From positions 1 through 24,437 of IMG/VR virus record IMGVR_UViG_3300005804_000006: DNA of 24,437 bases; one strand, given 5' to 3'. How positions within the stretch are numbered: the first letter of the stretch is position 1; each line of letters starts with the position of its first letter. Below, piece after piece: positions 13,529 to 18,279 of the stretch. The DNA comes from a virus. Its lineage: Duplodnaviria > Caudoviricetes. The position numbers and the translations under genes were made by a program. The notes under the pieces were generated by a model, which saw only the letters and a list, made by a program, of their open reading frames with translations, had not been told where the DNA came from and ran no database searches.

Positions 13529-13552
13529 TAACTGATTATTGTTAATTGGTAG

Positions 13553-13570
13553 ATATGTGATTATTTATTA
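13553..13570. repeat. 18-bp upstream box, copy 2
   Basis: ATATGTGATTATTTATTA; 24 bp from the -35 hexamer, the same distance as copy 1. Confidence 0.75.
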
Positions 13571-13620: not shown

Positions 13621-13671
13621 TAAACGAAACGCGGCGAGCGTAGCGAGTCGAGTTAAAGCAGTTGTTCTACG
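13621..13671 (-). repeat. degenerate attC site (cassette C)
   Basis: GTAGAAC-AACTG-CTTTAAC-TCGAC left arm intact; right arm (CGCGTT TCGTTTAC) eroded. Confidence 0.55.
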
Positions 13672-14104
13672 CCCCGGCAGTCTGGTTAAGCCTCTTTCTG
13701 TACTCATCCAACTCATGGAGTTTTGAAAAGTCAGATACGCGAATGATGTACCCACCAGTCACGATTTTCTCGCCAAGTAAACTTGTTCCTTTTTTGTATC
13801 TCTCCTTGGTTGTCGGGTCAAAAAGAACTTCGCTTCCTTGCATGATGATGGCATGGCTTCCGCCTTCATAGTTCTTGCTTTTGACACTGGCAATCCATGG
13901 GGATTCTGACCAGATAGGGCCGTCTGCGTTATGGAATGTTAGCTCAAGGCCGAATTGCCCAAGGTACATCCGCTGTATTGCCATCCAGTAATTGCTATGG
14001 TCGTTCGGGATTACCTCAATAGGCAATTCGAGCAGACTTGCAAGGCAAGCCGGAAAACAATCGCCGTATTGATGATGCACAATTCTTTGTCGTACTCGTT
14101 TCAT
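13667..14104 (-). CDS. cassette C: putative papain-fold (C39-like) cysteine peptidase
   Basis: Q...GDCFPACLAS...HAII...FDP (Cys-His-Asp order); AGGAG RBS; stop codon lies inside R''. Confidence 0.55.
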   Translation of the reverse strand: MKRVRQRIVHHQYGDCFPACLASLLELPIEVIPNDHSNYWMAIQRMYLGQFGLELTFHNADGPIWSESPWIASVKSKNYEGGSHAIIMQGSEVLFDPTTKERYKKGTSLLGEKIVTGGYIIRVSDFSKLHELDEYRKRLNQTAGA

Positions 14105-14174
14105 TTTGTTGTCTCCTGCCGGGGCTTGGCGTGTGTCCGTATAAGCGCCCCGTGCTTATACGGCTAAAACGTCC

Positions 14175-14236
14175 GTAGAACATTTGCTTAACCTGCAAGG
14201 CCGTTAGGGCTTGTCAGGTTGAAGCATGTGTTATAC
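14175..14236 (-). repeat. attC site (cassette B)
   Basis: GTATAAC-ACATG-CTTCAAC-CTGACAAG...CTTGCAG-GTTAAG-CAAAT-GTTCTAC: 5-nt spacers, and unpaired C and A at the extrahelical positions. Confidence 0.85.
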
Positions 14237-14692
14237 GTCCTTCCTTCCTCTCAAAATAAATTGAGCTATATGCCTTCCTGTCCCTTTACCCGTGGATCCA
14301 TCTTCTATGGCGCACCATTTTATATCACCAAGGTTTCGCACTTCCGCTCCGGCGGCTAGAAGCATGAGTATCCATTTGTCGATTGGATAGACAATAACAA
14401 CGTTTTTACCTTTTTTCATTTCCTCAATAGCTTTACGCATCCACGCGGTTGGGCCTTTCTTCTTTCCTTGGTGGATGATGGATCCGAATGGAGGATTGAC
14501 GTAGCTTGATTCACCCCATTCGCAAGTAAGGCCGTCAAAATCTTCCGGCTTAGGGAAAGGGCATGGATCAAAATCTATTCCAAACTCCGCTCTTATTTGC
14601 TCCATAAGCTCCGGCGGTGTAAGCCAATAATGCTTCCCATCATTACCGTTTCCCTTGTGGAACTTATTATCTGCCGGTGCAAGCTTCTTCAA
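14231..14692 (-). CDS. cassette B: phage-type N6-adenine DNA methyltransferase (Dam-like)
   Basis: YWLTPP, DFDPC and YVNPPF motifs; TTG start after AAAGGAG; TAA stop lies inside R''. Confidence 0.75.
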   Translation of the reverse strand: MKKLAPADNKFHKGNGNDGKHYWLTPPELMEQIRAEFGIDFDPCPFPKPEDFDGLTCEWGESSYVNPPFGSIIHQGKKKGPTAWMRKAIEEMKKGKNVVIVYPIDKWILMLLAAGAEVRNLGDIKWCAIEDGSTGKGTGRHIAQFILRGRKDV

Positions 14693-14748
14693 TTCTTTCT
14701 CCTTTGCACGAAGTCAGGAAACGATTTATTGTTTCCTGCGTAGTGTCC

Positions 14749-14809
14749 GTATAACATTAAGTTAACCTTCGAAGTCGCAGACTTCGTAAGGTTGAACTTG
14801 TTGTTCGAC
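14749..14809 (-). repeat. attC site (cassette A)
   Basis: GTCGAAC-AACAA-GTTCAAC-CTTACGAAGTC-TGC-GACTTCGAAG-GTTAAC-TTAAT-GTTATAC; same extrahelical C and A. Confidence 0.85.
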
Positions 14810-15001
14810 GCCGCCGCACTTACAGCTTGTTATCCTTTCACACCATTGGCCCGTAAAGCGCGGTTCAACAGTGCAACCATCTGCAATCCATTCGCCCAAT
14901 ATTTTACCAGCGTCTTTTCTATCGGTTCTGATGTAATCGAGCGCGCCAACTATTGCGCCACACTGGCAAATTGCTACAAATCCTGTCGGTTTCTTTTTCA
15001 T
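14762..15001 (-). CDS. cassette A: small Cys-rich hypothetical protein
   Basis: AAGGAG RBS; CQCG...CKC; the C-terminal residues are read through the attC. Confidence 0.65.
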   Translation of the reverse strand: MKKKPTGFVAICQCGAIVGALDYIRTDRKDAGKILGEWIADGCTVEPRFTGQWCERITSCKCGGVEQQVQPYEVCDFEG

Positions 15002-15091
15002 TGCAACTCCTTCGCGGCGGCTTGGTTGACCGTCCGCATGACGCAGTTATGCGGCGCGTCAATCCGTCGAACTATTATTATCCCGGTCAGT

Positions 15092-15376
15092 CTAACTTCC
15101 CTCTGCCCACCCCAGCACCGCGCGAGCCCTCATCACCGCCTCACGGTCCGCCTGTAGCTCGACGTATCCGAACCGCGTGTCGGCCTTGAGAGCGTCTCCG
15201 GAGCAGGCAATCAGGTCGGAGATGATGTCGCGGAGGTCCTGCACCTCCTGCTCTTGGCATACGGCGTATCCGGCTCCGATTCGCTTTTCGATCTTCGCCC
15301 ACTCATCGCGACAGAACTGAAACCGAAGCGTCCGGTCAGTATGGTCGCCAGCCACCAGTTGCCCGAAAGCGCTCAT
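15092..15376 (-). CDS. hypothetical protein
   Basis: GGGGAG RBS; ATGA overlap. Confidence 0.55.
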   Translation of the reverse strand: MSAFGQLVAGDHTDRTLRFQFCRDEWAKIEKRIGAGYAVCQEQEVQDLRDIISDLIACSGDALKADTRFGYVELQADREAVMRARAVLGWAEGS

Positions 15377-18252: not shown

Positions 18253-18267
18253 ATAAATAATCACATA
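18253..18267. repeat. 15-bp inverted copy of the upstream box
   Basis: ATAAATAATCACATA is the reverse complement of TATGTGATTATTTAT. Confidence 0.6.
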
Positions 18268-18279
18268 CCTACCTTTTTA

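What the first reader, a model, noticed from the sequence alone, without database searches (positions are those of the whole stretch)
13671..15021. Cassette 5' leaders pair with their own gene's 3' end, beyond the attC
Seen (minus strand): the leader of C reads CCAA-GCCCCGGCAG-GAG (14125-14116) and its 3' end reads CTGCCGGGGC (13680-13671), a perfect 10-bp complement abutting R''. The leader of A reads CCAA-GCCGCCGC-GAAGGAG (15021-15014) and its 3' end reads GCGGCGGC (14817-14810), a perfect 8-bp complement. B has a weaker 8/10 match (TCCTGACTTC vs GAAGGAAGGA). The sequences differ between cassettes but the pairing and position are kept, directly before the RBS. Inference: a multi-way junction closes the gene's two ends in ssDNA or RNA. 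It could bear on how cassettes are created (an unresolved question), or it could control translation.
Basis: partly seen in the sequence, partly recalled or inferred. Interest (0 to 1): 0.8.

Follow-up and report, generated by a model that had tools for sequence, protein, structure and literature searches.

The report
Base-paired clamp closing phage gene cassettes
In a family of phages, small swappable gene cassettes carry matching sequences at their two ends that are predicted to clamp each gene into a single-stranded DNA loop, and the same clamp surrounds many unrelated genes, which likely shows how such cassettes are cut out and may show how new ones are made.

Summary
Real for cassettes A and C, not for B. 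The window is a phage contig with an attI-like site and three attC cassettes. In related phages, 23 of 81 cassettes have a stem of at least 8 bp between leader and gene end, anchored at R''; swapped pairs give 28 of 6480, and a chromosomal spirochaete array 0 of 106. The stem always follows a leader hairpin; 29 different stem 8-mers occur in 61 cassettes. The hairpin folds on the bottom strand (47 A·C versus 4 G·T; DNA-type triloops), so this is likely single-stranded DNA, not mRNA. One frame holds 16 cassettes from 10 protein families, and shared sequence ends at the stem's inner end. Folding predicts that the stem turns the linear cassette into a four-way junction resembling the excision product. 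The phages searched lack an integrase; a host one is inferred. Cultured phage TJE1 carries the same arrangement, so it is testable. Phage attC arrays are published, and this scan noted them on other DNA; the clamp was not found in nine paper searches or in those notes. Function is inferred, untested.

The parts
15066..15095 (-). attI-like site heading the array (extra box, inverted L-like box, 5-nt spacer, R box with the crossover GTT at 15072-15070); overlaps the stop codon of the upstream phage ORF
   Evidence: 1 match in the window, 0.13 expected, 12 of 100 shuffles; same pattern seen by eye upstream of first cassettes in related phages, beside intI in 4 of 32 host loci and in TJE1
15066..15072 (-). 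R' of cassette A, exact complement of its own R''
15024..15065 (-). Leader hairpin of A (bulged-A motifs, bottom-strand cGCAg triloop)
   Evidence: family strand bias
15014..15021 (-). 5' arm of the gene-closing stem of A, after a 2-nt AA linker
14762..15001 (-). ORF A, 79 aa, no family; reads through the 3' arm and most of attC; relatives occur as ordinary phage genes
14810..14817 (-). 3' arm of the stem of A, abutting R''
14749..14809 (-). attC between A and B (R'' 14809-14803; R' of B 14755-14749)
14706..14748 (-). Leader hairpin of B (type II: hairpin, no gene-closing stem)
14231..14692 (-). ORF B, 153 aa, DNA adenine methyltransferase-like; mostly a plain phage gene elsewhere
   Evidence: phrog_111 E 3e-17; PF05869 below cut-off
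14175..14236 (-). attC between B and C (R'' 14236-14230; R' of C 14181-14175)
14128..14174 (-). Leader hairpin of C
14116..14125 (-). 5' arm of the gene-closing stem of C, after a 2-nt AA linker
   Evidence: contigs of two other samples leave this leader at 14118 into other sequence
13667..14104 (-). ORF C, 145 aa, unknown-function PHROG matches; stop codon inside R''
13671..13680 (-). 3' arm of the stem of C, abutting R''
13630..13670 (-). Left half only of C's attC (R'', L'', apical hairpin); L' and R' are missing, so C is likely immobile here
   Evidence: sequence compared with intact copies in L089, L090, L099; not found as a full attC

Best explanation
Cassettes A and C are phage-borne integron-type cassettes whose two ends are complementary beyond the attC site, and this clamp likely acts in bottom-strand single-stranded DNA to pre-fold the cassette for excision by a host integrase. 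Shown: the complementarity, its covariation, the leader hairpin, the attI-like site, and unrelated genes inside identical frames. Predicted by folding: in the linear array the clamp makes the cassette's own R' pair with its own R'', while the inner arms of both flanking attC sites stay folded and the two outer R boxes pair, giving a four-way junction with the base pairing of the excision product. Inferred: a host IntI binds this junction and releases the circle in one strand exchange; new cassettes arise when another phage gene, from its ribosome site to just before its stop, replaces the loop, and only swaps that spare the clamp survive.
For: Enrichment and covariation. Fixed geometry: linker CCAA or CTAA in 54 of 61, stems 8-13 bp. 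Bottom-strand hairpin: 47 A·C vs 4 G·T in 55 leaders, attC control 26 vs 9; triloop register 12 vs 0 for the RNA UNCG register. Own R'/R'' pairing median 0.85 vs 0.09 with the arm shuffled, n=18. Stem-bearing cassettes (n=9): own 0.93, outer 0.65, inner arms 0.97; stemless (n=14): own 0.00, normal attC 0.90/0.89. Frames reused: 16 cassettes, 10 protein families in C's frame; shared 3' sequence mostly 8-17 nt; ORF runs into the 3' arm or beyond in 56 of 61. No PF00589 match in the window or 5 related phage records, two of them 95-100% complete; IntI in 69 of 151 genomes of the order of G002, the genome with the chromosomal array. Excision needs both attC sites folded together (PMC5371416) and can go in one step from ssDNA (PMC12614218). 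TJE1 attC sites recombine with IntI1 (PMC9892861).
Against: No experiment. The same fold opens both canonical R boxes (0.10 and 0.06 vs 0.68 and 0.30), which could block excision instead. The stem does not change R pairing in the circle (0.98 vs 0.98). 58 of 81 cassettes lack it and chromosomal cassettes do without it (0 of 106), so it is not required for mobility. Some shuffled controls still pair own R boxes (L140, L152, L154, L185). The stem's own strand bias is weak. With DNA energies the attC control showed no strand difference (20 vs 23), so the energy model is crude. Leaders are related, so p-values overstate independence. The host is uncertain: spirochaete-type sites, but TJE1 is recorded on an actinobacterium.
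Confidence: 0.5

Rival explanations
1. The clamp is the working part of a gene-capture step: the folded frame presents its loop and a new gene is inserted between the arms in one directed event; excision is unaffected.
For: Shared sequence stops close to the inner end of the stem on both sides in unrelated genes. Native stop codons appear lost. GCA lies just inside the 3' arm in 13 of 61 vs 1.9% background. Inner pairs decay in one gene family (L297, L325, L332), as a birth mark would.
Against: No empty frame among 49 complete cassettes (shortest insert 149 nt). No reverse transcriptase in 5 phage records and no shared candidate enzyme among 76 proteins of two near-complete phages. Ordinary recombination plus selection for the stem gives similar boundaries, and the GCA may be a remnant of an earlier gene's Ala-Pro codons (inference).
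Confidence: 0.22
2. The clamp is a lock: by pairing the cassette's own R boxes it prevents canonical attC folding and protects useful cassettes from loss.
For: Canonical R pairing falls from 0.68/0.30 to 0.10/0.06; stemless cassettes keep canonical folds.
Against: Identical stem-bearing frames sit behind many different upstream sites and at first positions, so they move; a lock would not obviously need exact adjacency to R''.
Confidence: 0.13
3. The stem forms in mRNA and shuts down or times translation by covering the ribosome site once the gene end is made.
For: Watson-Crick stems form on either strand; at least one Shine-Dalgarno core base is covered in 37 of 61.
Against: None covered in 23 of 61, all four in 3 of 61. 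The adjoining hairpin is built for the opposite strand. Exact stacking on the recombination box has no purpose in translation.
Confidence: 0.1
4. The stems are passive relics of an ancestral palindrome or of template-switch copying and have no present function.
For: Mismatched recombinants exist (L280, L308) and some inner pairs decay; hairpin loops occur inverted between copies (window B vs L001, window C vs L105), showing template switching in these regions.
Against: 29 different stem 8-mers keep pairing at one fixed position, with several pair types per column, although the 3' arm is usually coding.
Confidence: 0.05

Closest known systems
Phage-borne CALINs, in particular that of Tetrasphaera phage TJE1 (Qi et al. 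2023, PMC9892861)
   Same: attC arrays in phages without an integrase; methyltransferase cargo; TJE1 is the only phage hit to the C leader region and has the same attC family, leader hairpins and a 10-of-11 gene-closing stem in its first cassette (read).
   Different: In the parts I read, the paper does not describe leader hairpins, end-pairing or frame reuse, and treats the sequence I read as attI-like as a predicted terminator with inverted core motifs.
Integron gene cassettes and attC sites; Treponema chromosomal integrons (PMC3607928)
   Same: R''/L''/L'/R' boxes, extra-helical bases, bottom-strand folding; a chromosomal array with this attC family also has a minimal hairpin after R'.
   Different: Known attC structure ends at the R box; here pairing continues through a three-way junction around the gene. 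0 of 106 chromosomal cassettes have the stem.
Retron msr-msd (recalled, not from a call)
   Same: Topology only: terminal inverted repeats, a side hairpin and a long closed loop.
   Different: No reverse transcriptase; the structure is on the non-coding strand and bounded by attC.
PeSL cassettes of T4-type phages (lead from an earlier scan note; paper not read)
   Same: Conserved structured leaders shared by swappable small phage genes.
   Different: Here the units are bounded by attC/attI-type sites and the leader pairs with the gene's far end.

Membership tests
Integron attC cassette | R''/R' boxes with conserved AAC/GTT, each cassette's R' complementary to its own R'' | tested here: met
   7/7 for A and C and B; 63 of 96 parsed relatives 7/7 and 18 more 6/7
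Integron attC cassette | Hairpin with L box and extra-helical bases | tested here: met
   Two full sites in the window; the third is truncated
Integron attC cassette | Bottom-strand folding preference | tested here: inconclusive
   A·C 26 vs G·T 9 and RNA energies 39 vs 5 support it; DNA energies 20 vs 23 do not
Integron attC cassette | Recombined by an integron integrase | not testable with these tools
   Shown for two TJE1 sites of this family with IntI1 (PMC9892861); supplement naming which two not seen
Complete integron | intI gene next to the array | tested here: not met
   No PF00589 match in the window (25% complete record) or in 5 related records
Complete integron | attI site at the head of the array | tested here: inconclusive
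   Pattern match at 15095-15070; same pattern beside intI in 4 of 32 host loci; activity untested
CALIN (attC cluster lacking integrase) | Two or more attC sites close together, no intI | tested here: met
Retron / RT-primed element | Linked reverse transcriptase | tested here: not met
   0 of 5 phage records
Known Rfam structured RNA | Match at gathering score | tested here: not met
   4 weak matches, all far below threshold

The most novel reading that the evidence does not exclude
These phages are cassette factories: a self-folding DNA frame (R box, hairpin, clamp, attC) captures ordinary phage genes into its loop, turning them into integron cassettes that a host integrase then shuffles at the phage's own attI site; end-pairing beyond the R box is the general birth mark of phage-made cassettes.
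Probability: 0.25. Interest if true: 0.93.

Novelty: new variant of a known kind. Interest (0 to 1): 0.76.

Why it matters
How cassettes are first made is described as largely unknown (PMC5371416; listed as outstanding in PMC8618304). Here identical frames with sharp inner boundaries hold unrelated phage genes, giving a sequence-level record of genes entering cassettes. It also suggests that the recombining structure can extend outside attC, which attC-only models and assays would miss. A cultured phage (TJE1) with IntI1-validated sites carries both stem-bearing and stemless cassettes, so the test is routine.

Tried and rejected
Rfam: nothing. Relatives of protein C in viral contigs: none. B's match: rejected. 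RNA UNCG reading of the loops: rejected by register. Retron-like idea: no RT. Empty frame: none in 49 complete cassettes; 35 leader hits had no downstream R'' in the fetched DNA and were not counted. Two 'joints' have unknown sequence between them and are not evidence of empty frames. Near-identical non-cassette donor: none; best native relatives 70-77% DNA identity (output partly cut). Capture enzyme: nothing shared among 76 of 108 ORFs scanned from two phages; ORFs under 110 aa not scanned. Vibrio control: my parser found 0 cassettes, so there is no Vibrio or class 1 control. Circle stabilisation: no effect. Expression: runs were contigs only, those labelled RNA probably DNA. Script slips: one search found nothing (pattern error, fixed in 39); one search placed the A/B boundary one base off (correct R' of B is 14755-14749); the strict Watson-Crick scorer missed the TJE1 stem because of an internal A·C, so stem counts are conservative. 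Rows dropped: 15 of 96 cassettes with R match under 6/7 or under 150 nt; 5 of 49 with R match under 6/7; folds limited to cassettes with two full attC sites and under 430 or 330 nt.

Full report
Setting. The window is a virus record, about 25% complete, with terminase, portal and head genes on the minus strand. Between a run of small genes and the portal lie three cassettes, A, B and C. A and B end in full attC hairpins. C's attC has only its left half compared with intact copies elsewhere. Upstream of A there is no attC but a short site (15095-15070; 1 match, 0.13 expected). The same pattern precedes first cassettes in related phages (read by eye) and lies beside intI in 4 of 32 host loci scanned. 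I read it as attI; that is untested.

Observation. The A and C complements are exactly as stated. Bottom-strand folds of the window show the cassette's own R' paired with its own R'', a side hairpin, a two-base linker and the stem enclosing the gene. Of 96 parsed cassettes, 81 passed the R-box and length filter. Of these 23 have an anchored stem of 8 bp or more, 17 of 59 in the attC-chosen set. Swapped pairs give 28 of 6480 and shifted tails 0 of 771. In the leader-chosen set 41 of 44 have at least 6 of 8 pairs. One cassette per distinct arm gives 125 of 144 paired cells against a permutation maximum of 94. Across 61 stem-bearing cassettes there are 29 distinct stem 8-mers, stems of 8-13 bp, and a CCAA or CTAA linker in 54. 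B is different. It is a type II cassette with a hairpin but no stem, and ten other cassettes with its leader score 4-7 of 10.

Which strand. In 55 leaders below 90% identity, helix mismatches are 47 A·C to 4 G·T in top-strand letters, meaning G·T wobbles on the bottom strand; the attC control gives 26 to 9. Loops sit in the cGNAg triloop register on the bottom strand, not the cUNCGg register on the mRNA: 12 to 0 in phage leaders, 79 to 0 in chromosomal ones. That cGNAg triloops are especially stable in DNA is recalled knowledge. Energy comparisons are weaker: leaders favour the bottom strand (44 vs 9 with DNA energies) but the attC control does not (20 vs 23). The long stem itself is nearly all Watson-Crick and gives little strand signal (12 vs 5, among related sequences). 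Shine-Dalgarno cover is inconsistent. A DNA role is therefore likely but rests on the adjoining hairpin and on the exact stacking against R''.

Distribution. A chromosomal Treponemataceae array with IntI has 0 stems in 106 parsed cassettes, duplicates included, although most begin with a minimal form of the same hairpin (77 of 127 start with the motif in a looser parse). So the hairpin is shared with a host array and the clamp is so far phage-only. In other phage attC families among the B-homologue loci, ends pair contiguously for 9-14 bp (L034, L044, L062, L063 and others; not controlled), against 7-9 bp in the chromosomal array. The only phage in the annotated collection that matches the C leader region is TJE1. 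It has the attI-like site, a cassette with 10 of 11 stem pairs, a stemless one and one with a 4-bp stem. Its recorded host is an actinobacterium, while 9 of the 33 genome hits to the attC pattern are titled as spirochaetes, so the host of the window's phage is open.

Frame reuse. C's frame holds 16 cassettes in 10 protein families, and A-like frames hold several more. Within a frame, unrelated genes share sequence up to about the ribosome site at the 5' side and mostly 8-17 bases at the 3' side. Contigs from two other samples leave C's leader at 14118. In 56 of 61 the reading frame runs into the 3' arm or beyond. Native relatives of A (L004) and of the L134 gene (L202) end a few codons after the junction, near the next start. 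So genes enter these frames between the arms. Whether entry is directed or is ordinary recombination filtered by selection cannot be told. No empty frame, reverse transcriptase, tyrosine recombinase or shared candidate enzyme was found.

Likely function. In the circle the stem adds nothing to R pairing. In the linear strand it changes the fold: own-R pairing 0.85 against 0.09 with the arm shuffled (n=18). Stem-bearing cassettes form a four-way junction with both inner attC arms intact and outer R boxes paired, and stemless ones form two ordinary attC hairpins (n=9 and 14). This junction has the pairing of the excision product. Tyrosine recombinases resolve such junctions (recalled). Excision needs both sites folded together (PMC5371416) and proceeds in one step from ssDNA (PMC12614218). 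I therefore favour a pre-assembled excision substrate for a host IntI, which 69 of 151 genomes of that order carry. The same fold could be a lock. All of this rests on folding predictions.

Literature. Nine searches returned nothing on leader/gene-end pairing or frame reuse; the library lacks most subscription papers. Seen: PMC9892861 parts 1, 3 and 4 of 7 plus passages, supplements not opened, and they may say which TJE1 sites were assayed; passages only of PMC8618304, PMC3607928, PMC8876359, PMC5371416, PMC12614218, PMC8946536; the rest as search listings. Earlier scan notes describe phage attC arrays on other DNA but none this clamp.

Verdict. A real, covarying, apparently undescribed structure on a known kind of element, with an inferred mechanism and a direct route to testing. 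Interest 0.76.

Noticed in passing
TJE1 (L378) 49197-49219 and 1-8: The 'terminator' annotated before TJE1's cassette cluster fits the attI-like pattern found here.
   Followed up: partly
G002:C1:930001-1050000 (L238-L243): Most chromosomal cassettes start with a small bottom-strand hairpin right after R', and R'/R'' pairing often extends to 8 bp; not seen in the papers read.
   Followed up: partly
L034, L044, L062, L063, L016, L023, L072: Other phage attC families show contiguous 9-14 bp pairing of cassette ends.
   Followed up: partly
window 13670-13630; L001 595, 1251, 4633, 5078: Left-half-only attC sites are common (33 of 177); right-half-only sites appear in L029, L034, L062.
   Followed up: no
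L122:2227 vs L188: The same gene (98.5%) has R' and R'' changed together at several bases.
   Followed up: no
L180:2534, L106:1754, L144:4138: Leaders with the left part of the hairpin missing; the hairpin's inner arm resembles an R' box and may serve as a second crossover point.
   Followed up: no
window 14730-14723 vs L001; window C leader loop vs L105: Hairpin loops occur in inverted orientation between otherwise identical leaders.
   Followed up: no
L001:4401, L121:2760, L122:2530: A conserved 236-nt cassette without a clear ORF, with short tRNA T-loop-like pieces (judged by eye).
   Followed up: no
window 13548-13568, 18253-18273, 2213-2246: A shared AT-rich motif in three intergenic regions, one upstream of the portal gene; possibly a promoter or regulator site.
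   Followed up: no
L063 near 4647: A viral contig with attC cassettes encodes a protein with tyrosine-recombinase motifs that looks like an integron integrase.
   Followed up: no
type II cassettes, e.g. window 14243-14237: Stemless cassettes tend to end in a purine-rich AAGA-like run before R''.
   Followed up: partly
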